DNA of 64,000 nucleotides, taken from IMG/VR virus record IMGVR_UViG_3300046531_000318, positions 28,867-92,866 of that record, one strand, 5' to 3'. The stretch comes from a virus. Lineage: Duplodnaviria; Caudoviricetes. Made by a program: the position numbers and the translations under genes. Below the pieces are notes generated by a model that saw only the letters and a program-made list of their open reading frames with translations, made no database searches and was not told the origin of the DNA. Of this stretch, positions 4,319 to 62,900 are shown one piece after another. How positions within the stretch are numbered: position 1 is the first letter of the stretch; each line of letters begins with the position of its first letter.

Positions 4319-6022
4319 TTACGACCAGTCGATGGTGCCCGGCGCCGGGCACGTCCACGATGCCTTCAGGCGTTCGCGCATCTCGGCGAGCGTCGTCGTG
4401 CGCAGCAGCTTTCCGTCACGGAAAACCGGCACCAGTTCGCCGCCGTCGAACTGCTCGAGCGTCTGCTGTTCGTGGAGCACGTAGTCGCTTCCTTCCTTCT
4501 CGACGCGCAGCAGCCCCTTCGCTGACTTCTTCGTGCCGTCGTCGGTGGCCGGGTCTTTGTAGATCGCCACCTGTTCGCCGCCAACCTCCGCGTAGACCGC
4601 CTTCATGGCCCAGCCGAACGTATCGCGCGAGAGCATGTTGTACGTGTACGAGCCGATGCCGAACACGACGTTGTTGGACGCGAAACCCTTCGCGACGAGG
4701 CGGTGCATGATGTCGCGGGCGCGCGGCAGGCTGATGCTGTCGCCGTAGATCAAGCCGACGCTGTCGTCCAGCACCTTGAATCCCTTCGTCGTCGTGGTGC
4801 CGCCATAAATGTCCCACAGGCACTCGACGGCGCCTTTACGCTCCGCTTCGGTGATGCGCGTGTCGGTGCCGTCGAGTACCAGGTACTTGCCATCGGTGAA
4901 CAGGTACGGCTGACCTTCTTCGTCGCAGGCGAGTTCGTCATCAAAGTATCCGGTCAGGATCTTCACTGGATCGCCCGAGTCCGGCCGAAACACCACCTTG
5001 CGCATGCCGAGCGCGTTCGGCGCGCGCGCGCGGATCTCATCCTTTAGATCGCGGGCCACTTTGGTGATGACCGCCCAAAAGTCGAACGAGTCGGCGACGA
5101 TCGATACCATGCCGGTCGGGTAGTCCTGAGTCACCAGTTCGCGGATGACCTCGCACTCCGCCAGGCGGCGCAGCGCCTTTTCCTCGAGGCCTTCATTGCC
5201 CGGCGCACGTGCGAGGCGCTGCTGCGTGAGCAGGATGCGCAGCGTCATCACGCTGTGCTCCGTGGCCGGGATGGAGCCGCCGACCAGTTCCGTGTCCGCG
5301 TTAGCGCCGTAGAAGTCCTCGGCGTAGTCGATGGCCGGGATCGTGTCGGTGCCGGTGAAGGACAGCAGGTGGCCCGCGCCGCAGCGCATCGCGTCGTGCA
5401 CGCCGCTCATGCCGCGCATCGAGAAGTCGTGGCCCTGCCAGTCGATGAATTCCTTCGGTGCGCCGGTCACCTCTGCGAAGTAGGTCAGGAGCTTGCGGAA
5501 CTCAAACGCGAGCGTCGCCACGGTCGACGGCTTCCAGTTCTCGCAGCTGAAGATCGTTTCGAAGTAGGTAGCGAGCCACGGGAATTCCGGGTGCGTGTTG
5601 ATGAACACCACCGGCGGAACCTTGATGTTCACGCGGGCGCCTTCCGGCAGCGCGCGGATCTCGAGCGGCAGGTACCCGAGGTCGTGGAGCGCCTCGAGCT
5701 TGTCGGTCGACACGGCGTCCTGTCCGAGTGCCGTATCCATGCGGCGCTTGAACTTGTGCACTGCGGGCTTGGTGCCGACGCCGAAAAACTCGCGGTTAAA
5801 CAGCCCGATCAGGTACTCGCTGATGAAGCCCTGGAGGCCGAACCAGACCACTTTGCCGTCGAACAATTGCGGCAGGACCGGTGCGTACTTCGCGCTGCGC
5901 GGCGTGAAGTTGGCGACGAGCTTCGTCGTCTCTGCTGGGTAAAGTCCCGGATGCGAAGTCTTATAAAAATCTGCAAGATTGAAAGGAACCAGGCCATTCT
6001 TTACGCCGTACGGTGCATTCAT
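4319..6022 (-). CDS. nadV: Nicotinamide phosphoribosyltransferase family protein (Namat-like, NARP1)
   Basis: DFYKTSH, HDFSMRG, GTDT, SIPATEHSVM, VADSFD, RPDSGDP, IYGDSI, GIGSYTY, RDTFG.A.K, K.SAKG motifs. Confidence 0.93.
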   Translation of the reverse strand: MNAPYGVKNGLVPFNLADFYKTSHPGLYPAETTKLVANFTPRSAKYAPVLPQLFDGKVVWFGLQGFISEYLIGLFNREFFGVGTKPAVHKFKRRMDTALGQDAVSTDKLEALHDLGYLPLEIRALPEGARVNIKVPPVVFINTHPEFPWLATYFETIFSCENWKPSTVATLAFEFRKLLTYFAEVTGAPKEFIDWQGHDFSMRGMSGVHDAMRCGAGHLLSFTGTDTIPAIDYAEDFYGANADTELVGGSIPATEHSVMTLRILLTQQRLARAPGNEGLEEKALRRLAECEVIRELVTQDYPTGMVSIVADSFDFWAVITKVARDLKDEIRARAPNALGMRKVVFRPDSGDPVKILTGYFDDELACDEEGQPYLFTDGKYLVLDGTDTRITEAERKGAVECLWDIYGGTTTTKGFKVLDDSVGLIYGDSISLPRARDIMHRLVAKGFASNNVVFGIGSYTYNMLSRDTFGWAMKAVYAEVGGEQVAIYKDPATDDGTKKSAKGLLRVEKEGSDYVLHEQQTLEQFDGGELVPVFRDGKLLRTTTLAEMRERLKASWTCPAPGTIDWS

Positions 6023-6945
6023 TGTGATTTTCCTTCTGTTGTTAAATTAGGTTTTTTCTTCCGGATGGGAGGAGCGCAGACGTGCCGCCCCCTGCTCGCG
6101 AGCATCAACTTCTCAATCGCAGGCGCGGTTCCTAGCCGGAAAGTAACCAAGGTTTCGTTGTGCCATGCGGTCACTCTCCGGCCTGTGCAACAGGCGCTTA
6201 TCGCTTTGAAATGCACGCCTGTCTCATCCATTGCTGTTCTGGCATTTACATATGTGCCGAGCAATCGCCCATCTATGGAGTACATAGAAACTTGCTTGCT
6301 CAGGCGCTCGACGTTGTCGGGACGGATCGATCCTAGCTTTGCTGCTCTGATCTTGTCGCCGAAACCTTCCGGTTTTGGCTTGCCCAGGTGAACTTGCCGT
6401 AGCTTTTCGCGGGTTTCCTCCGTTATCAGTCTCGGGTTTTCGGCTCGAGTTTTCGCGATCCTCGCCAATACCTCAGGGCTATGCTTCCTGCCGATGGCTC
6501 TGATCCGCAGCTTCGCCTTGTGCTCTGGTGTCAAAGGGCGACCTCGCGCTGAGGAGGCGCGCTTTTCCACCGCCTGTTTGCTCCGCGCGCGATAGCTCAG
6601 TGAACCACCACCTTCCGTGATGTTTGTTAAGACGCCAGAACCGTTAGCAGTTCTTCCCCATCGTGCGATAAGAGCCATCTCAAGGTCGAACGCCTCATTC
6701 TTTGTAAGCCCGTCGCGCACGAACATCAGAAACGCATCGCGCCCGGTAGCTTCTCTGATCTTCTTTACTTTCCGGGCCTTGTGCGGGTTGTAAAGATTCT
6801 CGTAGACGCCGCAAGTGAAGTGCTTGAACGCTCGACGGTCTTTGCCCATGCCAACGTAAAACGGCTCATAGGGGACACCTCTGCCGTCATTTAGCGGCTT
6901 TCGCGGGTCACACAGCATGTAGACGTAGAACAGCGCGTGGGTCAT
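6019..6945 (-). CDS. Free-standing GIY-YIG homing endonuclease with NUMOD3/NUMOD1 DNA-binding repeats
   Basis: YVYML.DPR..PFYVGMG...R, LEMALI, LTN..GG; repeats LTPEHKAKL, HSPEV, TEETREKL; C-terminal NUMOD1-like V..YSIDG..L..Y..A..I..CC; visibly lower GC. Confidence 0.85.
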   Translation of the reverse strand: MTHALFYVYMLCDPRKPLNDGRGVPYEPFYVGMGKDRRAFKHFTCGVYENLYNPHKARKVKKIREATGRDAFLMFVRDGLTKNEAFDLEMALIARWGRTANGSGVLTNITEGGGSLSYRARSKQAVEKRASSARGRPLTPEHKAKLRIRAIGRKHSPEVLARIAKTRAENPRLITEETREKLRQVHLGKPKPEGFGDKIRAAKLGSIRPDNVERLSKQVSMYSIDGRLLGTYVNARTAMDETGVHFKAISACCTGRRVTAWHNETLVTFRLGTAPAIEKLMLASRGRHVCAPPIRKKKPNLTTEGKSQ

Positions 6946-6969
6946 GGCGTGGCACTAGAATTTGGACGT

Positions 6970-7788
6970 TCAAACGATTACGCAGCGGCTGTCGTCAGTC
7001 CAGTTATTTCTCGTGAATACTCGGTCGTAGCACTCGAGCAGCGGGTCGAGTCCTTTGCTGAAGATGCCGTGCGTGACGTACAGGTAGATGGGATGCATGT
7101 AGTTCTGCTCGCGGATCGCTGCGGCCAGTTCGATGAACGTCCGGCCGCCGTCGCAGATGTCGTCCACCACCAGCAGCGGGCCGCCAGGCAGTTCCGACTG
7201 GATCTCGGTGCCGGTGATGTGGCCGGTTCGCGTGTCGCGCACCTTGTCGGCGTACACGACGTCACAGCCAGTTTCCTTGGCCAGCTTGAGAACGCGTTTG
7301 CGGGCGCCGGCGTCGGGCGCCACCATCGTCGGTTGCTGGCGCGCGATGAGGAAAATCTGCCCGACGACTTCGCGCAGCGCCGGCAGCGGATCTTGGATCT
7401 GGACACGGTCCAGCAGCGCTGTGACGACGTCGCTGTGGGGGTCTTGGATGCCTACCAATGCATAGTTTTGCGCGTTGATAAGTTGGCAAAAAACCTTGAC
7501 GCTGTGTGCTTCGCCCGGGTTCGCGACGCGGTCCTGCCGTGCGTACGGGACGTATGGCATGTCGAGAACAATGGGCCTGCCGGGATACGCCTGCCGCACT
7601 GCATCGGTGACCATGAGCAGCGTCATAACCTCTGCGGAGTCGCTCAGATGGGCGCGCACGAGAACGTCATCAACGCCATCCACACCAGCTTCGACTGACG
7701 CATGGATCTCGCCGCCTGGGAACGTTAGGGTTTTCAGCTCAAGCGGACGCTGCGAGCCATTTCTATTGAGGGCCGACAAATGAATCAT
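6970..7788 (-). CDS. prs: Ribose-phosphate pyrophosphokinase-like protein (Adps-like, NARP1)
   Basis: FPGGE, MPYVPYARQDR, DPHS, VAPDAGA, K.RD..TG.I, VVDDICDGGRTF, YVTHGIFSKG. Confidence 0.92.
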   Translation of the reverse strand: MIHLSALNRNGSQRPLELKTLTFPGGEIHASVEAGVDGVDDVLVRAHLSDSAEVMTLLMVTDAVRQAYPGRPIVLDMPYVPYARQDRVANPGEAHSVKVFCQLINAQNYALVGIQDPHSDVVTALLDRVQIQDPLPALREVVGQIFLIARQQPTMVAPDAGARKRVLKLAKETGCDVVYADKVRDTRTGHITGTEIQSELPGGPLLVVDDICDGGRTFIELAAAIREQNYMHPIYLYVTHGIFSKGLDPLLECYDRVFTRNNWTDDSRCVIV

Positions 7789-9535: not shown

Positions 9536-10744
9536 TCAGGCTCCCTTCACGCAGAGGACTTGCTTCAGGACGTGGACCACGTCGACCAGGTCGCGCTGGT
9601 TCTCCATCACTGCGTCGATGTCCTTGTACGCGGATGGGATCTCGTCCAGCACCGCGTCGTCTTTCCGGCACTCGACACCCTCGGTTTGTGCCTTGAGGTC
9701 GTCCAGATTGAACACTTTGCGGGCCTGCGTGCGGCTCATCTTGCGGCCGGCACCGTGCGAGCATGAGCAGTAAGACTCGGCGTTGCCCTTGCCCCGCACG
9801 ATATAGCTGCGCTGGCCCATCGAGCCCGGGATGATGCCAAGGTCGCCTTCGCGCGCGCGGATCGCGCCTTTGCGTGTGACCCACAGGTTGCGGCCGAAGT
9901 GGTTTTCCTTTTCGACGTAGTTGTGGTGGCAGTTGATCGCTTCCTGCGTGATCGTGAATTCGACCGGGATGCGTCTGCGCAGGGCCGCGATAACTGTTTC
10001 CATCATCACGCGGCGGTTCTCGAGTGCATAGTTCTGCGCCCAATTCACCGCTTCAACGTATTCCTTGAAGTCGTCGGTATCCTCGGGCAGGTAGGCGAGA
10101 TCGCCGTCGGGCAGGCTGATGAAGTACTGCTCCATGCGACGCTTTGCCTTCTCGATGAAGTAGCGGCCGATCATGTTGCCAATGCCGCGCGAGCCCGAGT
10201 GGAGCATGATCCAAACGTCTTGCGCCTCGTCCACGCAAATCTCGATGAAGTGGTTGCCGCTCCCGAGCGTTCCGAGTTGCGTTGCCGCTTTGCGCTGGGC
10301 CTGTGCATTGGACTGTGCGGACGCATCGCCAAAGGCGCGCGCCACACTGTTCGGTATCGTCGTGATCCGGGCAGCCAATGCTTCGATATCGCTATCGCGG
10401 CGGTGTGCTCCACCGGCACCAAGCGGCACGTCGCGCTCGATCTGGTGGCGGATCGCCGTCAGGCTGTCCGGGAGGTCGCTCGCCTTGAGCGACAGGCGCA
10501 CGGCGTTCATGCCGCATCCGATGTCGACGCCGACGGCTGCCGGGATAATGGCCTTGTCCGTGGCGATAACCGTGCCGACCGTCGAGCCTATGCCGGCGTG
10601 GACGTCCGGCATGCAGGCCACGCCATTGCCGGCGATAAATGGCAGGCGCGCGAGGTTCTTCAGTTGCTTCAGCGCGCTGTCCTCGACTTCGTCGGTCCAG
10701 ATCTTGATCGGGCGTGAACCCTCGTCGTGCAGAACTTGCTTCAT
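9536..10744 (-). CDS. rtcB: RtcB family RNA ligase (3'-phosphate/5'-OH)
   Basis: MPDVHAG, VGVDIGCG, GTLGSGNHF.E, HSGSRG, HHNY, RKGA, PGSMG, SHGAGR, DE.P.AYK; GAGGA RBS before ATG 10744. Confidence 0.95.
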   Translation of the reverse strand: MKQVLHDEGSRPIKIWTDEVEDSALKQLKNLARLPFIAGNGVACMPDVHAGIGSTVGTVIATDKAIIPAAVGVDIGCGMNAVRLSLKASDLPDSLTAIRHQIERDVPLGAGGAHRRDSDIEALAARITTIPNSVARAFGDASAQSNAQAQRKAATQLGTLGSGNHFIEICVDEAQDVWIMLHSGSRGIGNMIGRYFIEKAKRRMEQYFISLPDGDLAYLPEDTDDFKEYVEAVNWAQNYALENRRVMMETVIAALRRRIPVEFTITQEAINCHHNYVEKENHFGRNLWVTRKGAIRAREGDLGIIPGSMGQRSYIVRGKGNAESYCSCSHGAGRKMSRTQARKVFNLDDLKAQTEGVECRKDDAVLDEIPSAYKDIDAVMENQRDLVDVVHVLKQVLCVKGA

Positions 10745-10755
10745 TGTGTCCTCTG

Positions 10756-11292
10756 TCAGTGCATGGTCGGGGCTTGGACCGGGACGGTCACGAACGTGAC
10801 CACCTTGCGTACTTCCGGCATGAAGGTGGCTCGTCTCGGCGTGCCTGCGATCTTTGAGGTGCCTGCCCACGCTTCGGCCGACGTGAAAATCTGCACGGCC
10901 AGAATCTCATCGGCGCTCGCGGTCACTTCGGCGATGACCTCCGCCGTCAGTGCGCGCGGGCTGCCGTCAGCGTTGCGCGGGACGGCAACGTCGAACGCCT
11001 CGGTGATGATGACCACAGCGTCGGGCTTCGGTCTCACCTGCTCGCGCGCTGACGTGCCTTCGGTCAGAAGCGCTCGGACCACGAACTCCAGGCGGTCCGG
11101 TGCCTTGCTCAAAAACTCTTCCGTCAGTTGTTCGGGCATCTCGGCGACCACGTGTCCGTCGATGCGACGCGCGACCAGGAAGATTGCGGGCTTGAAGCGG
11201 CCGTTCGTGTTGAATTCATCGACGGCTGTCTTGGCGAACTCCGCGTAAAGCGCGGTGATCTGCTCGGGGGTAAAGGTAGCTGTGGCGGTCAT
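10756..11292 (-). CDS. Hypothetical protein
   Basis: 178-aa ORF filling the operon. Confidence 0.65.
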   Translation of the reverse strand: MTATATFTPEQITALYAEFAKTAVDEFNTNGRFKPAIFLVARRIDGHVVAEMPEQLTEEFLSKAPDRLEFVVRALLTEGTSAREQVRPKPDAVVIITEAFDVAVPRNADGSPRALTAEVIAEVTASADEILAVQIFTSAEAWAGTSKIAGTPRRATFMPEVRKVVTFVTVPVQAPTMH

Positions 11293-59206: not shown

Positions 59207-59560
59207 GGCAAGCGGAGGCGCCCAGCAGGGAGAAGTGGTTACCGGGGCTTTTGCCGACTTCACCGGTGGCCGCCGTGGCGCCATGAATAACCCCTGCAGA
59301 TGCGAACGCGGAGGGCGCGGTGCGGCTGCCTCGTCCTTTCCTCCGTCAGCGGATCGACGTCGCGTGTCGCATCGGACAGCCGGGAAAGACCGGCACCCTT
59401 CTTCAGCATGGGCGCTTCAATGATGCGTACTCCCTTTTGCCGGCTGATCCACTTCTTCGGTGGCAGTGCGGGTTGCGAGCGGCATGAGGAGCGTGTTCCG
59501 CACGCTTCGCTCATGCTGGTCGTGAGCCTCGACGGCGGTAATCAACTCAGGACGGATGCG

Positions 59561-59995
59561 ATGGATCTCACTTTGAAAGACGACGCAAGCAAGACGTTTG
59601 CGGTGGTGTTGAAGGACAAGTTTGGCGCGGTCGCGCAGGCGAGCGGCGCTCTGTCGGTCGCAAGCTCGGACGAGTCGATCGCCGTGGCGACGCTCTCGAG
59701 CGACGGCCAGTCGCTTTCCGTGGCCGCTGCCGGCGCGGGCAAGCTGGGCACCGCCACCGTTACCGTTTCGGACGAAGCGGACAACGTGTCGGCCGTGGTG
59801 AATGTGACGGTGGTGGCGGGTTCGCCGGCGTCGATCGAACTGACCGAGGTTGTCGCATCGACGGACGCAAGCTCGGCAAGCACGACGACCGCAGAGGCGA
59901 CGGCTGCTGCAGCAACCGACGCGCCGGCCGCGACCGATGCTGCTGCCTCGAGTGGCGACGCTGCTGCTTCGACGGACACCGCAGCCGCGCAGTAA
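59561..59995 (+). CDS. Ig-like (Big2) domain protein with Ala/Thr-rich tail; possibly a virion decoration protein
   Basis: DKFG, SSDESIAV, G.ATVTV, V.V.V.A; start could lie further upstream (~59420). Confidence 0.7.
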   Translation: MDLTLKDDASKTFAVVLKDKFGAVAQASGALSVASSDESIAVATLSSDGQSLSVAAAGAGKLGTATVTVSDEADNVSAVVNVTVVAGSPASIELTEVVASTDASSASTTTAEATAAAATDAPAATDAAASSGDAAASTDTAAAQ

Positions 59996-60040
59996 TCGAA
60001 GCGCGAGAGACCTCCGGCCGACTAGCGGCCGGGCGCAACC

Positions 60041-60073
60041 GGGAGGCCCGCTTCGGCGGGCTTCCTTATTTTT
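60041..60073 (+). terminator. Rho-independent terminator
   Basis: GGAGGCCCGC-TTCG-GCGGGCTTCC followed by TTATTTTT. Confidence 0.8.
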
Positions 60074-60124
60074 CAGTGCGAAAAGCAGAAAACGATTGTG
60101 CGCGCAAAGCAGAATCGATATGAT
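60071..60124 (+). promoter_or_regulatory. Sigma70-type promoter of the RNA operon overlapped by two operators
   Basis: TTGTGC-N17-TATGAT (60096-60124); operators TTTCAGT-N7-GCAGAAA (60071-60091) and ATTGTGC-N7-GCAGAAT (60095-60115). Confidence 0.7.
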
Positions 60125-60248
60125 TTATCCCATGCGCTCGGTGCGGCCTCGCCACCAAGCGCAAGACTGAGCGGTCGGGTGGTCGCGCCCACCTGAAAAA
60201 AAGGCCGTAGCGGCAGTCGTGTTGGTTAGGAAGGCCGCTCAGTCACTC

Positions 60249-60329
60249 GTTGCGTAGGTCACCTGGTGGGACACCTGGCACAAGCAGCACGCCGGCTGGG
60301 GCCTGGTTCGATTCCGGCACGCGACGCCA
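60249..60329 (+). ncRNA. tRNA-like RNA lacking a canonical anticodon loop
   Basis: Acceptor GTTGCGT/ACGCGAC + G-CCA, D arm GTC/GAC with GG, T loop TTCGATT, but an 11-nt loop in the anticodon position. Confidence 0.65.
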
Positions 60330-60336
60330 AGATTTA

Positions 60337-60413
60337 GGCAGGGTAGGGAAGGTGGTCATCCCGTCGGGCTCATAACCCGAAGGTCGCAGGTTCGAATCCT
60401 GCCCCTGCAACCA
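60337..60413 (+). tRNA. tRNA-Met(CAT), initiator type
   Basis: Cloverleaf; 1:72 mismatch (G.A), G2:C71/C3:G70, three G:C pairs in anticodon stem TCGGG/CCCGA, encoded CCA. Confidence 0.93.
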
Positions 60414-60467
60414 GAGCAAAACGGCCGCAAAGATAGGGCGGCGCACGATCCCCGTAACGTGCCGAGT

Positions 60468-61376
60468 GACTGGCGTAACGCAGTCGTCTCACGCATGGCG
60501 ACTGATAGCAGGGTGCGCACCTGCCGATGGACCGAGTCTGTTGAAACAGGGCAGATAGCGAAGTCGGTACAGCCGCCATGACGTGAGAGCGAATCCCGAA
60601 AGGGACGACGGAGTTTGCCGCCAGCGCGCTTGCGCGTTGACCGATGCGCCTTCGGGTTGGCAGTGCGCGGCACGCTCTCAACGAGTGCGAACCGAGCCAG
60701 TATGGTGACAGCGGACCCGCGTCTATTGCGGGTGGCGCTCACGGACCAGACCGCTCCAGAGCACGGCGCTAAAGTCCAAGCTACCGGGACATGAGCGGGG
60801 GAGGGGCCCGCACTCTCATGTATGGCGATGCAGTTCCCCCAGGCGGCGGCTGAGTAAAAACCCAGACTCCCCACTGCCCGGCTGGTTCGGCGTCGTCATT
60901 CATGAGGGTGACAGCCGCCGAGGTCGCACCGGCAGCACACTGCCTGGAGGGCCTCTGTGCTTGGACGAGTTCTCGCCCATACCGGAACCGCTCGGCGCCG
61001 CCACGTGTATATGGCTTCCCTCGATTTACTACGTTGCATCGTAGCCACCAGTGGTAACGCCGGGAGGCGCTCCTGACTCCGCCGGGGAAAGACCGGCACC
61101 TTCACGCATGTCGATGGACGGTGCAGGTTCGTGAATCAACCTGCATTGAACCACCAGGGAATGGGGCCGCACCCATCGGCATTCGTGAGGGTGAAGTGCG
61201 AAGCGTCAGGAGGGAGCCAGCGCAGTGCTGGCGCCTCGCGTCACTCTCGAAGTGGAAGGCTCCGGTACGCAATCCGGCGAGTTGGTGGAAAGCCAGCACT
61301 CTCAAGCATGGCGACTGGATGTTTTCCCCGCGGACGGCGCGAACAACCTTCCGGTCCAGTCGTCATGGCTGAGAGT
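60468..61376 (+). ncRNA. Array of four structured repeat units (T-arm-like hairpin + conserved ~20-bp stem around unique cargo)
   Basis: Units 60487-60588, 60811-60910, 61097-61193, 61298-61376 share arms RCYYTCANG(C/T)ATG(G/T)CGA and CG(C/T/G)CAT..NTGAGRG with compensatory changes; no credible ORFs. Confidence 0.75.
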
Positions 61377-61515
61377 CAAAGCAGAATACTGGCGCTACGG
61401 CGCCGGTTGTCCCAAGGCCCGCGAGGAAGCCGATATTACGCTCGTGGGGGCAGCACTGTCGTCTTGGCCCGAACGCGGTTATTCAGGGTGGAATAATCGG
61501 GCCCCGGCACTATTC

Positions 61516-61591
61516 GCGGGATTAGCTCAGATGGTAGAGCATCGGTTTTCCAAGCCGACTGTCGCCGGTTCGAAGCCGGCATCCCGCTCCA
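61516..61591 (+). tRNA. tRNA-Gly(TCC)
   Basis: GCGGGAT/ATCCCGC acceptor, AGCTCAG..GGTAGAGC D arm, anticodon TCC, GGTTCGA T arm, T-CCA end. Confidence 0.93.
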
Positions 61592-61627
61592 AGTGGTCTC
61601 TCGCGCTAACCCCGTAGCGTGTGATTT

Positions 61628-61653
61628 GGCGCCCCGAGTGGGCGCCTTTTTTT
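61628..61653 (+). terminator. Terminator closing the RNA operon
   Basis: GGCGCCC-CGAGT-GGGCGCC followed by T7. Confidence 0.8.
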
Positions 61654-61849
61654 ATGCTCGCGTCTTTCGCGGGTAGGCCGGCCGGACCTTCTCGCCACGC
61701 GCACGGCGCTCGGCGATGATGCGCTGGTACGTCGGGTTAATGTACAAAGCCTGCGGCGTGATCCCGGCAGCCCGGCCGGCGCGGTATCCCGTTGCGCCGG
61801 CCTCGACCAGCGCGATCGCCGCACGCATCCGATCGCTGGTCGTCCTCAT
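61652..61849 (-). CDS. Small HTH protein
   Basis: AIALVEAG.T.Y.A...AGIT.QALY; GAGG RBS. Confidence 0.65.
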   Translation of the reverse strand: MRTTSDRMRAAIALVEAGATGYRAGRAAGITPQALYINPTYQRIIAERRARGEKVRPAYPRKTRA

Positions 61850-62196
61850 AACAGCCTCGGCATTCCGAAAGCTGCCCGCCTGAAGGCCTCGAGGATCTCG
61901 GCCGATCTGAAGCTCTGCAGTCGCTCCGGCCGCTGGCCGACAAGGCACCAGTACTCGTCCATCTGTCCGCGCGCGCTGCGTGCCTTGTACGTCTCGATCA
62001 GGCCTTTGTCCTGGAGCATGCCGATGGCCTCGCGGATCCGCCGGCTGTTCGTGTTCAGTTCCAGCGTGAGGTGTGTCCGCGTGCGTGGGCTCGTCTCGAG
62101 CATCGCATACACCTGGTCGGCGAGTTCCGCCGGCGTGCGGTAGTTGTACGTTATCGCGCGCCGCTCGGTGTCGTTCATTCGTGTCTGTTCAGTCAT
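61846..62196 (-). CDS. Winged-HTH hypothetical protein
   Basis: V..ML...P.T...L...L......I.EA...L..KGLI. Confidence 0.6.
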   Translation of the reverse strand: MTEQTRMNDTERRAITYNYRTPAELADQVYAMLETSPRTRTHLTLELNTNSRRIREAIGMLQDKGLIETYKARSARGQMDEYWCLVGQRPERLQSFRSAEILEAFRRAAFGMPRLL

Positions 62197-62201
62197 TTGC
62201 T

Positions 62202-62414
62202 CTATGCGTATCGTCGCTGAAGGGTGAGGGTTTTCGGGACGCGGGTGATCGGTGGGCACTTCCCGACGGCCACGTCGATGTTGCTCTGCTGATCGTTGGC
62301 GAGCAGCTGGGCGACCGCGCAAATCAGACGGAGCGTCAGGGTACTGGTTGGCGTCGTGGCGTTCAGGTAGGCATCGAGCGCGTTTCGGGCTTCGGACTGG
62401 TCGGCGCGGAGCAT
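62202..62414 (-). CDS. Hypothetical protein
   Basis: GAGG RBS, fits operon. Confidence 0.5.
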   Translation of the reverse strand: MLRADQSEARNALDAYLNATTPTSTLTLRLICAVAQLLANDQQSNIDVAVGKCPPITRVPKTLTLQRRYA

Positions 62415-62480
62415 GTGGCCTCTCGGAAGTTTTTTCTAGTACGACCACAATGCCGCAATACCAGTCGACCAGTCCATACG

Positions 62481-62900
62481 TCACGGTCGGTTGTCTGCAC
62501 CACAGTTCCGGCAGTCCCATGAATATCTTTCCGAATCGCTTACAAATCGCCCGCAGCCGCAACAGTTGAAGGTGTAAGCCCGTGGCTTGCGCGGCTTGAT
62601 AAGCGTGATTCCGGTGTCGCGCAGCGCCTCGTCGCGTTTGATGTACTGCACGTCGACGGCCGGCCGCGTCTTGGCGTCGATGTAATCCTTCGGCCACGGG
62701 ATGTCCGTCTCGCGAGCGTTGTGGTGCTGCTGGGCGTCCTCCCGGCTGAACAGACGCGCCTTGCTTAGGTCGGTCGTGTAGCCGTCGGGCGCGGCCCACC
62801 ACAGCACGTCGTTGCCGACGTAGCTGCGGCTGTCCTGCAGGTAGAAACGATCGTTCGAATCGTGAGTTTGCGAAATTGCGCAAGTTTGCAATTCGGCCAT
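62481..62900 (-). CDS. Hypothetical phage protein with C-terminal zinc ribbon
   Basis: YLQDSR.YVGN...WW....GYT.DL.KA, DIPWP..YID, C.GCGRF..C.NCG. Confidence 0.7.
   Translation of the reverse strand: MAELQTCAISQTHDSNDRFYLQDSRSYVGNDVLWWAAPDGYTTDLSKARLFSREDAQQHHNARETDIPWPKDYIDAKTRPAVDVQYIKRDEALRDTGITLIKPRKPRAYTFNCCGCGRFVSDSERYSWDCRNCGADNRP

What the first reader, a model, noticed from the sequence alone, without database searches (positions are those of the whole stretch)
60584..61304. Spacers of the array can refold into tRNA-like (acceptor + T-arm) modules
Seen: all four units are immediately preceded by a 5-bp hairpin with a 7-8-nt loop whose stem sequence differs but always pairs: GACTG/CAGTC (60468), GCGGG/CCCGC (60795), GCCGG-GGAAAGA-CCGGC (61081), GTTGG-TGGAAAG-CCAGC (61281). 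The outer repeat halves can alternatively pair across a spacer: TGAGGGT (60903) with ACCTTCA (61098), TGAGGGT (61186) with ACTCTCA (61298), TGAGAGC (60584) with GCTCTCA (60674). In the B-C and C-D spacers this gives a 7-bp stem stacked on a 5-bp hairpin, the geometry of a tRNA acceptor/T-arm. Established: RNase P recognises this minihelix, as in tmRNA and phage P1 C4/P4 CI RNAs. Inference: the repeat is a two-state switch, and after cleavage each spacer becomes a tRNA-mimic-capped RNA.
Basis: partly seen in the sequence, partly recalled or inferred. Interest (0 to 1): 0.8.

Follow-up and report, generated by a model that had tools for sequence, protein, structure and literature searches.

The report
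Phage array of stem-enclosed small RNAs

Summary
The sequence observations hold. The named strands can pair.

The repeat is a long interrupted hairpin on the + strand. It has an 8-bp basal helix (pyrimidine strand Y, purine strand R), a 2-3-nt internal loop, a 7-10-bp upper stem and a variable apex. Twelve units from eight phage contigs support it: 95% of cells paired, six pairs with compensatory changes. No Rfam family matches.

In two other phages the same Y:R helix flanks a tRNA-like gene, so it behaves as a leader/trailer stem around tRNA-sized cargo.

Ten of 13 R strands also have an 8-bp partner 25-170 nt downstream (shuffles average 2.4). That pairing costs 0 to +6 kcal/mol in most loci.

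The hairpin loops are not T-loops, there is no CCA, and the tRNA model does not match the spacers. RtcB is absent from two related complete phages.

Close relatives of the phage swap or delete units and spacers like cassettes.

Best reading: a polycistronic non-coding operon of stem-bounded small RNAs, cut at the conserved stems, after which the spacers re-close. The processing enzyme and the function are inferred.

The parts
60041..60066 (+). Terminator-like hairpin that ends the upstream protein operon
60166..60245 (+). First stem-closed module: a 10-bp closing helix with a small hairpin flush against its 3' strand
   Evidence: read; inference
60249..60329 (+). tRNA-like element with an encoded CCA and an abnormal anticodon arm
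   Evidence: tRNA-Sec model, 22.4 bits, below the gathering score; not called by ARAGORN
60337..60413 (+). tRNA-Met (CAT)
60468..60485 (+). 5-bp hairpin with an 8-nt loop, preceding unit A
60485..60591 (+). Unit A: basal Y:R helix, internal loop, upper stem, branched apex
   Evidence: 54.6 bits
60584..60680 (+). Module closed by unit A's purine strand and a lone downstream pyrimidine strand (8 bp). It folds as a four-arm structure on its own
60795..60811 (+). 5-bp hairpin with a 7-nt loop, preceding unit B
60812..60910 (+). Unit B
   Evidence: 68.5 bits; structure-preserving substitutions in a natural variant
61013..61023 (+). Weak lone pyrimidine partner for unit B's purine strand, following a 4-bp hairpin
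   Evidence: +17.8 kcal/mol
61081..61097 (+). 5-bp hairpin with a 7-nt loop, preceding unit C. The same stem sequence recurs in L121, L179, L173 and L180
61098..61193 (+). Unit C. Its apex holds an arm resembling the T arm of the neighbouring tRNA-Met
   Evidence: 74.1 bits
61186..61250 (+). Module closed by unit C's purine strand and a lone pyrimidine strand at 61241-61249
   Evidence: +3.7 kcal/mol
61281..61297 (+). 5-bp hairpin with a 7-nt loop, preceding unit D
61298..61377 (+). Unit D
   Evidence: 49 bits
61516..61591 (+). tRNA-Gly (TCC)
61628..61646 (+). Terminator-like hairpin that ends the non-coding operon

Best explanation
Window 60.1-61.65 kb is one non-coding operon on the + strand. 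It holds a tRNA-like RNA, tRNA-Met, four stem-enclosed units with structured segments between them, and tRNA-Gly.

The conserved repeat is a leader/trailer-type helix. An 8-bp pyrimidine:purine (Y:R) helix continues, across a small internal loop, into a 7-10-bp acceptor-like stem that encloses a variable cargo of 58-87 nt. In other phages the same helix encloses a tRNA-like gene.

I infer that a host double-strand- or structure-specific endonuclease cuts the roughly 20-bp interrupted helix. RNase III is the most likely candidate and RNase P is possible. Once cut, the purine strand is free to pair with the second pyrimidine strand that lies downstream, usually just after a small G-C-closed hairpin. 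Each inter-unit segment then closes into a compact, stem-capped small RNA.

Cargo and spacers are interchangeable cassettes, and one spacer in another phage is a hammerhead ribozyme. The released RNAs are probably accessory phage RNAs, such as decoys or regulators. The architecture is shown here. The cleavage, the enzyme and the function are inferred.
For: Operon layout:
- tRNAs and terminators all lie on the + strand.
- The model finds exactly four units in the whole 92.9-kb genome, all in this array.

Unit structure:
- 95.3% of cells are paired across 12 units from 8 contigs.
- Six pairs show changes on both sides, and 0 of 500 shuffles reach the observed values. Slid controls give 30-49%.
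- A natural variant keeps unit B's stem through U.G to C-G, C-G to U.G, and a mismatch that becomes G.U.

Strand:
- Wobble pairs are G.U on the + strand.
- The model scores 49-76 bits on + against 27-46 on -.

tRNA link:
- The same helix flanks tRNA-like genes in L176 and L180.

Second partner for the purine strand:
- Ten of 13 R strands have an 8-bp downstream partner; shuffles average 2.4 with a maximum of 7.
- The alternative costs 0 to +6.4 kcal/mol.

Abutting hairpins:
- They covary and recur in other phages.

Cassette behaviour:
- Near relatives have deleted or replaced units and spacers at the repeat boundaries.
- L121 differs from L123 by one spacer plus repeat.
- L121's spacer carries a complete hammerhead core (Rfam HH9, 24.1 bits, E 0.0014 in a 661-nt search).
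Against: - No RNA data exist, so no 5' or 3' ends are known (listed under tried).
- About 30 nt of sequence is conserved across phages of 50-65% G+C. That is more than RNase III recognition would require and hints at a more specific partner.
- Cognate downstream helices are not clearly longer than non-cognate ones (7.8 against 7.3 bp).
- The lone pyrimidine strands look like degenerate 5' halves, so they could be orphan half-repeats left by recombination rather than selected partners.
- Unit B's downstream partner is weak.
- No antisense target was found in the phage's own genome.
- Spacers are replaced wholesale in close relatives, so no single spacer is essential.
Confidence: 0.45

Rival explanations
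1. Each spacer, bounded by the outer repeat halves and capped by the 5-bp hairpin, is a tRNA acceptor/T-arm mimic. RNase P cuts at the start of the purine strand, and the products may receive CCA, be aminoacylated, or be circularised by the phage RtcB.
For: - A 5-bp hairpin with a loop-proximal G-C pair sits flush on a 7-8-bp helix in B, C and D.
- The purine strand has a conserved downstream partner.
- The helix flanks real tRNA-like genes elsewhere.
- Precedents exist. RNase P cuts C4 RNA and tmRNA (PMC4919922). It also cuts a bacterial Y RNA internally, after which CCA is added (PMC4201824).
Against: - The loops are not T-loops and vary from 3 to 12 nt.
- No CCA follows the pyrimidine strand. 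The usual following bases are C-G-C-A, and they lie inside the unit's own helix.
- The tRNA, tmRNA and C4 models do not match.
- The named B-C and C-D stems cost more than 20 kcal/mol before cleavage.
- RtcB is absent from G001 and G002.
Confidence: 0.15
2. The units are the functional parts, not processing signals. The conserved internal loop and its flanking helices form a specific binding site for a host or phage protein, displayed four times as a decoy or sponge. An example target would be a tRNA- or dsRNA-directed defence nuclease. The spacers are filler.
For: - The sequence, not only the pairing, is near-invariant at about 20 positions across unrelated phages.
- The element is multicopy in a phage that also carries counter-defence genes: NAD salvage and RtcB.
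- It is co-transcribed with a tRNA mimic and tRNAs.
Against: - No protein partner is shared by the loci that carry it.
- Most other phages have only one copy.
- The conserved downstream partner strands and abutting hairpins are left unexplained.
Confidence: 0.15
3. The array is largely evolutionary debris. It is a decayed phage tRNA cluster whose conserved inter-tRNA linkers persist because they promote homologous recombination. The lone half-repeats are orphans of such events, with no role for refolding.
For: - Recombination joints fall inside the repeats (L121 against L123 and L179).
- The lone pyrimidine strands resemble degenerate 5' halves.
- Unit C's apex retains a T-arm-like piece, and L176 and L180 retain tRNA-like cargo.
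Against: - Compensatory changes keep both helices and the small hairpins.
- G.U asymmetry points to selection on the RNA.
- Orphans are almost all of the pyrimidine type and sit at a consistent distance and side.
Confidence: 0.15
4. The unit is a new self-cleaving ribozyme class whose catalytic core is the conserved internal loop.
For: - It neighbours a hammerhead in L121. Small ribozymes are known to cluster in prophage transcripts (PMC3088659).
- Strong sequence conservation surrounds an internal loop.
Against: - The internal loop varies in size and sequence (2x2 or 3x3), which is unlike a catalytic core.
- No ribozyme family matches.
Confidence: 0.05

Closest known systems
Phage T4 tRNA gene cluster with its stable 'species 1 and 2' RNAs (own knowledge, not checked here)
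   Same: A phage polycistronic transcript that mixes tRNAs with small stable RNAs of unknown function, matured by host RNase P and RNase III.
   Different: There is no sequence or Rfam relationship. Here a conserved repeated helix bounds each module, and modules are swapped between relatives.
RNase III processing stems of rRNA operons and phage T7 early transcripts (own knowledge)
   Same: A roughly 20-bp interrupted helix formed by sequences flanking a cargo RNA. Paralogous copies sit within one transcript, with an internal loop where cleavage is expected.
   Different: The helix sequence is conserved across unrelated phages. The purine strand has a second, downstream partner, and a small hairpin abuts the helix. 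Cleavage was not tested.
tRNA-like RNase P substrates: P1/P7 C4 RNA, tmRNA, bacterial Y RNA YrlA (PMC4919922; PMC4201824)
   Same: Non-tRNA RNAs in which a helix stacked on a hairpin mimics the acceptor/T-arm. YrlA is a tRNA-like domain mounted on a long terminal stem, as in L176 and L180.
   Different: There is no T-loop, no CCA, no Rfam match, no Ro60 gene in the phage and no Ro-binding motif.
Clustered hammerhead ribozymes in prophage transcripts (PMC3088659)
   Same: Structured RNA elements between phage genes, proposed to cut long transcripts. L121 has a hammerhead core inside one spacer.
   Different: The window has no ribozyme match. The conserved unit is not a hammerhead.
Repeat-spacer or cassette arrays (CRISPR, integron attC)
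   Same: Conserved structured repeats alternate with variable segments that differ between close relatives.
   Different: The repeats are long hairpins with a variable apex, not short direct repeats. No cas or integrase gene is present, there is no attC core, and G.U asymmetry points to RNA rather than DNA sites.

Membership tests
tRNA / acceptor-T-arm minihelix (RNase P substrate) | A 7-bp helix stacked without a gap on a 5-bp stem with a 7-nt loop | tested here: met
   Units B, C and D: the hairpin ends one base before the helix starts. The loop-proximal pair is always G-C.
tRNA / acceptor-T-arm minihelix (RNase P substrate) | T-loop consensus (U-U-C-R-A-N-N) | tested here: not met
   The loops are purine-rich or otherwise unrelated, and range from 3 to 12 nt across loci.
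tRNA / acceptor-T-arm minihelix (RNase P substrate) | Single-stranded discriminator plus CCA after the 3' strand | tested here: not met
   The following bases are N-G-N-A, and they are part of the unit's internal loop and upper stem.
tRNA / acceptor-T-arm minihelix (RNase P substrate) | Match to the Rfam tRNA, tmRNA or C4 covariance models | tested here: not met
   No match to units or spacers at E<=10. ARAGORN finds only the two tRNAs.
tRNA / acceptor-T-arm minihelix (RNase P substrate) | Cleavage by RNase P | not testable with these tools
   No RNA runs are available.
RNase III processing stem | About two turns of coaxial double helix, often with an internal loop, formed by sequences flanking the cargo | tested here: met
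   8 bp, a 2-3-nt loop and 7-10 bp, supported by covariation.
RNase III processing stem | Cleavage by RNase III | not testable with these tools
   Needs an in vitro assay or RNA-end mapping.
Bacterial Y RNA (YrlA) | Encoded next to Ro60 (TROVE), with a Ro-binding motif in the terminal stem | tested here: not met
   No TROVE match in the phage. No Rfam Y RNA match. The motif quoted in PMC4201824 was not found by eye.
Hammerhead ribozyme | Conserved core and three stems | tested here: not met
   Absent from the window. Present only in L121's spacer, below the gathering score.
CRISPR array | Short direct repeats with unique spacers of regular length | tested here: not met
   The repeats are inverted halves 45-74 nt apart with a variable centre.

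The most novel reading that the evidence does not exclude
The conserved helix defines a phage RNA-cassette system. A common processing and refolding scaffold lets phages express, release and exchange diverse small structured RNAs (tRNA mimics, ribozymes and others). The purine strand acts as a built-in switch that re-caps each released RNA. The cassettes would serve as rapidly exchangeable decoys against host RNA-targeting defences.
Probability: 0.15. Interest if true: 0.85.

Novelty: new variant of a known kind. Interest (0 to 1): 0.55.

Why it matters
Phage tRNA clusters often contain unexplained small RNAs. This work gives a defined structural motif that is not in Rfam. It is supported by covariation and shared by unrelated soil and rhizosphere phages. 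It encloses tRNA-like or other cargo and has a second, conserved pairing option.

The motif comes with a covariance model for finding more copies, and with a concrete, testable model for how such operons are cut and refolded. The cassette-like turnover between close relatives suggests an accessory, possibly conflict-related role.

If the downstream partners turn out to be only recombination scars, the region is an ordinary processed tRNA/sRNA operon.

Tried and rejected
Searches that found no relatives:
- DNA searches of the array against phage and plasmid records gave only tRNA hits or nothing.
- A search with the upstream 4.7 kb found no related phage.
- Flanking proteins 59300-59995 and 61846-62883 have no relatives in viral contigs.
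- The first pattern scan (5' half only) returned 119 loci. Apart from the window's own stretch, none had both half-motifs placed as a unit, so I treated them as chance matches.
- The two-part pattern in metagenome and genome collections gave mostly chance matches inside genes. Only L132, plus copies of L121 and L123, were real. L124, L126 and L163 were judged chance or coding. L135 and L145 are perfect palindromes of uncertain relation.

RNA evidence:
- No RNA holder was listed for the stretch. Only DNA contigs could be laid.

Ideas tested and dropped:
- Antisense targets of the array within the phage genome: only chance-level matches.
- A Y RNA reading: no Ro60 gene.
- An RtcB link: absent in G001-G005, two of which are complete.
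- I first took the eighth basal pair as covariation proof against cross-spacer pairing. Natural variants lose that pair, so I dropped the argument.
- Cognate against non-cognate length of the downstream helices showed no clear difference.
- Earlier-findings look-ups added only the parent note. One call was malformed.

Full report
**Setting**

The window is the last 64 kb of a 92,866-bp IMG/VR virus record judged complete. From 60041 to 61646 there is no credible ORF. A terminator-like hairpin closes the upstream operon (antirepressor, HU, one unknown gene). After it, on the + strand, come:
- a tRNA-like element with an encoded CCA (60249-60329; only 22.4 bits against the tRNA-Sec model);
- tRNA-Met (60337-60413);
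- 1.1 kb of structured sequence;
- tRNA-Gly (60516... precisely 61516-61591);
- a second terminator-like hairpin.

The genes beyond it run the other way. I read this as one non-coding operon. That is an inference from the layout, because no RNA data exist.

**Checking the observation**

All four hairpins are at the coordinates given. With a deliberately loose rule, about one position in ten of this G+C-rich window is preceded by some such hairpin, so four of four gives about 1e-4.

The stems also covary. Both end pairs are always G-C, and the three inner pairs change on both sides between copies.

The same element precedes units in other phages. Its stem sequence matches the one before unit C in L121, L179, L173 and L180, and differs while still pairing in L176.

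The pairings across spacers also exist as written. For B-C and C-D, however, they follow simply from all 5' halves being complementary to all 3' halves.

**What the repeat is**

Each unit is a hairpin of 80-107 nt with four parts:
- an 8-bp basal helix between a pyrimidine strand (Y, roughly CACYYTCA) and a purine strand (R, roughly TGAGRGTG);
- a 2x2 or 3x3 internal loop;
- an upper stem starting ATGGCGA/TCGYCAT and usually running to 10 bp;
- an unrelated apex.

The whole-region fold and the single-unit folds both give this structure.

Pattern scans of viral, metagenome and genome collections found true relatives in only a handful of soil or rhizosphere phage contigs: L121/L123/L132/L179, L122, L170, L173, L175, L176 and L180.

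On an alignment of 12 units from 8 contigs:
- the proposed structure pairs 95.3% of cells;
- six pairs change on both sides;
- no shuffle of 500 reaches the observed values;
- sliding the partners drops pairing to 30-49%.

A covariance model built from the alignment scores true units at 49-76 bits on the + strand and 27-46 on the - strand. Chance pattern hits score at or below 34 bits. The model finds exactly four units in the phage, all in this array.

The wobble pairs are G.U on the + strand, so the element is an RNA of the same sense as the tRNAs. No Rfam family matches it, even at E<=10.

**The tRNA connection**

In L180 and L176 the same Y and R strands flank a tRNA-like gene. It has an acceptor stem, a D arm, a canonical T arm and a 55-60-nt insertion, and scores 40.9 and 43.7 bits against the Rfam tRNA model. 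ARAGORN does not call it.

There the Y:R helix runs straight into the acceptor stem, giving about 16 continuous pairs. The conserved helix therefore behaves as a leader/trailer stem around tRNA-sized cargo.

In the ordinary units the 7-bp upper stem takes the place of the acceptor stem, and the enclosed cargo is 58-87 nt. Unit C's apex contains an arm resembling the T arm of the adjacent tRNA-Met (read). This is suggestive only.

**The second partner**

Mapping every Y-type and R-type motif showed that nearly every R strand is followed, 50-160 nt downstream, by a further Y-type strand that starts no unit. It often sits just after a small hairpin.

Ten of 13 R strands have an 8-bp partner (G.U allowed) within 25-170 nt. 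Shuffled downstream sequence gives 2.4 on average and never more than 7 in 500 trials.

In the window these partners are:
- 60673-60680 for A: 8 bp perfect, matching the two bases peculiar to A's R strand;
- 61241-61249 for C;
- a weak one at 61013-61023 for B.

Forcing the alternatives in the intact RNA gives these costs:

| Pairing forced | Cost (kcal/mol) |
|---|---|
| Window A, lone partner at 60674 | +4.5 |
| Window C, lone partner at 61241 | +3.7 |
| Window B, lone partner at 61018 | +17.8 |
| L180, L176, L175 lone partners | 0 to +6.4 |

R is almost always G-rich (GGG or GAG) while Y varies between C and T. An R strand of that kind can pair with several different Y strands through G.U.

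The actual partners are mostly lone strands inside the spacers.

**Caveats on the second partner**

Cognate downstream helices are not clearly longer than non-cognate ones (7.8 against 7.3 bp). The lone strands also look like degenerate 5' halves; 60675-60690 is three mismatches from the 5'-half pattern. They could be orphan half-repeats left by recombination.

Against that, the orphans are almost all of the Y type and always lie on the 3' side of an R strand.

**What is not tRNA-like**

- The hairpin loops lack the T-loop consensus and range from 3 to 12 nt across loci.
- No CCA follows Y. The next bases (mostly C-G-C-A) belong to the unit's own internal loop and upper stem.
- The tRNA, tmRNA and C4 models are silent on units and spacers.

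RNase P does cut tmRNA, C4 RNA and a bacterial Y RNA (PMC4919922; PMC4201824). The precedent is therefore real, but nothing here shows that it applies.

The phage does encode RtcB (window 9536-10870, - strand), next to NAD-salvage genes. The complete phages behind L176 and L180 have none, so RtcB is not part of the element. There is no Ro60 gene either.

**Cassette behaviour**

DNA contigs from other rhizosphere metagenomes carry near relatives of this phage in which the array is rearranged.
- In two runs, unit A's 5' half is fused to unit B's apex, so one unit plus one spacer is lost.
- In another run, the A-B spacer is replaced from within A's R strand by 112 other bases.
- In three runs, everything from just before the hairpin of unit C to the start of tRNA-Gly is replaced by 163 other bases.

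Substitutions in unit B of one variant preserve its stem. L121 differs from L123 and L132 by exactly one spacer plus repeat, and L179 lacks the segment between R and its downstream partner.

The extra spacer of L121 contains a complete hammerhead core with three stems (Rfam HH9, 24.1 bits against a gathering score of 52; E 0.0014 in a 661-nt search). This fits the known clustering of hammerheads in prophage transcripts (PMC3088659).

In several temperate phages the locus sits between the lysis genes and the terminase genes.

**Mechanism**

Shown:
- the architecture;
- the strand;
- the covariation;
- the two partners of R;
- the modular turnover.

Inferred:
- The long interrupted helix is a processing site. 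RNase III fits the geometry best, and RNase P is possible because hairpin plus basal helix make a 13-bp stack.
- After cleavage the R strand re-pairs downstream, which closes each spacer.
- The released RNAs are accessory.

I found no antisense target in the phage and no shared protein partner.

**Verdict**

The element is an undescribed structured-RNA family within a familiar kind of locus, the phage tRNA/sRNA operon. It deserves RNA-end mapping.

Noticed in passing
window 60249-60329: A tRNA-like element with a 7-bp acceptor stem, D arm, T loop and encoded CCA. Its anticodon arm closes an 11-nt loop and its T stem has only 4 pairs. ARAGORN does not call it. Rfam gives only a 22.4-bit tRNA-Sec hit.
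   Followed up: partly
window 60000-60012 and 61595-61607: A 13-nt perfect inverted repeat brackets the whole non-coding operon. By my own rough estimate it is expected about 0.07 times by chance in 3 kb. The right arm lies in sequence that resembles the 3' flank of a Burkholderia tRNA-Gly.
   Followed up: no
window 61523-61653: tRNA-Gly plus its downstream hairpins match the Burkholderia sRNA family Bp1_781 (50.7 bits, gathering score 80). This is a hint to a Burkholderia-type host, or to an attachment site copied from the host.
   Followed up: no
window 4319-7788 and 9536-10870 (- strand): A nicotinamide/nicotinate phosphoribosyltransferase-like gene and a ribose-phosphate pyrophosphokinase-like gene (NAD salvage) sit near RtcB, with a GIY-YIG gene between them. 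The group looks like a counter-defence cluster.
   Followed up: partly
L121 967-1042: A hammerhead ribozyme core (all conserved core bases, three stems, predicted cut after 1016) lies inside the one spacer that the sister contigs L123 and L132 lack.
   Followed up: partly
L176 430-560 and L180 618-743: tRNA-like genes with a 55-60-nt insertion. They also carry an internal second copy of the acceptor 5' strand, which could form a bare acceptor/T-arm minihelix (mascRNA model, 19.9 bits). This is a second alternative-partner design in the same loci.
   Followed up: partly
L122 4304-4470: The single unit in L122 is followed by a match to the Betaproteobacteria toxic small RNA family (33.7 bits, gathering score 50). 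After that comes a tRNA-Gly(TCC) whose D-arm region aligns poorly in the Rfam tRNA match.
   Followed up: no
L173 about 2680-2700: The loop of the hairpin before the unit reads the same 11 bases as the 3' end of 16S rRNA (the anti-Shine-Dalgarno region). The window's hairpin loops are instead purine-rich and Shine-Dalgarno-like.
   Followed up: no
window 60078-60114 and 61378-61389: A 12-13-nt motif (AAAGCAGAA core) occurs twice just upstream of the operon's likely promoter and once right after unit D.
   Followed up: no
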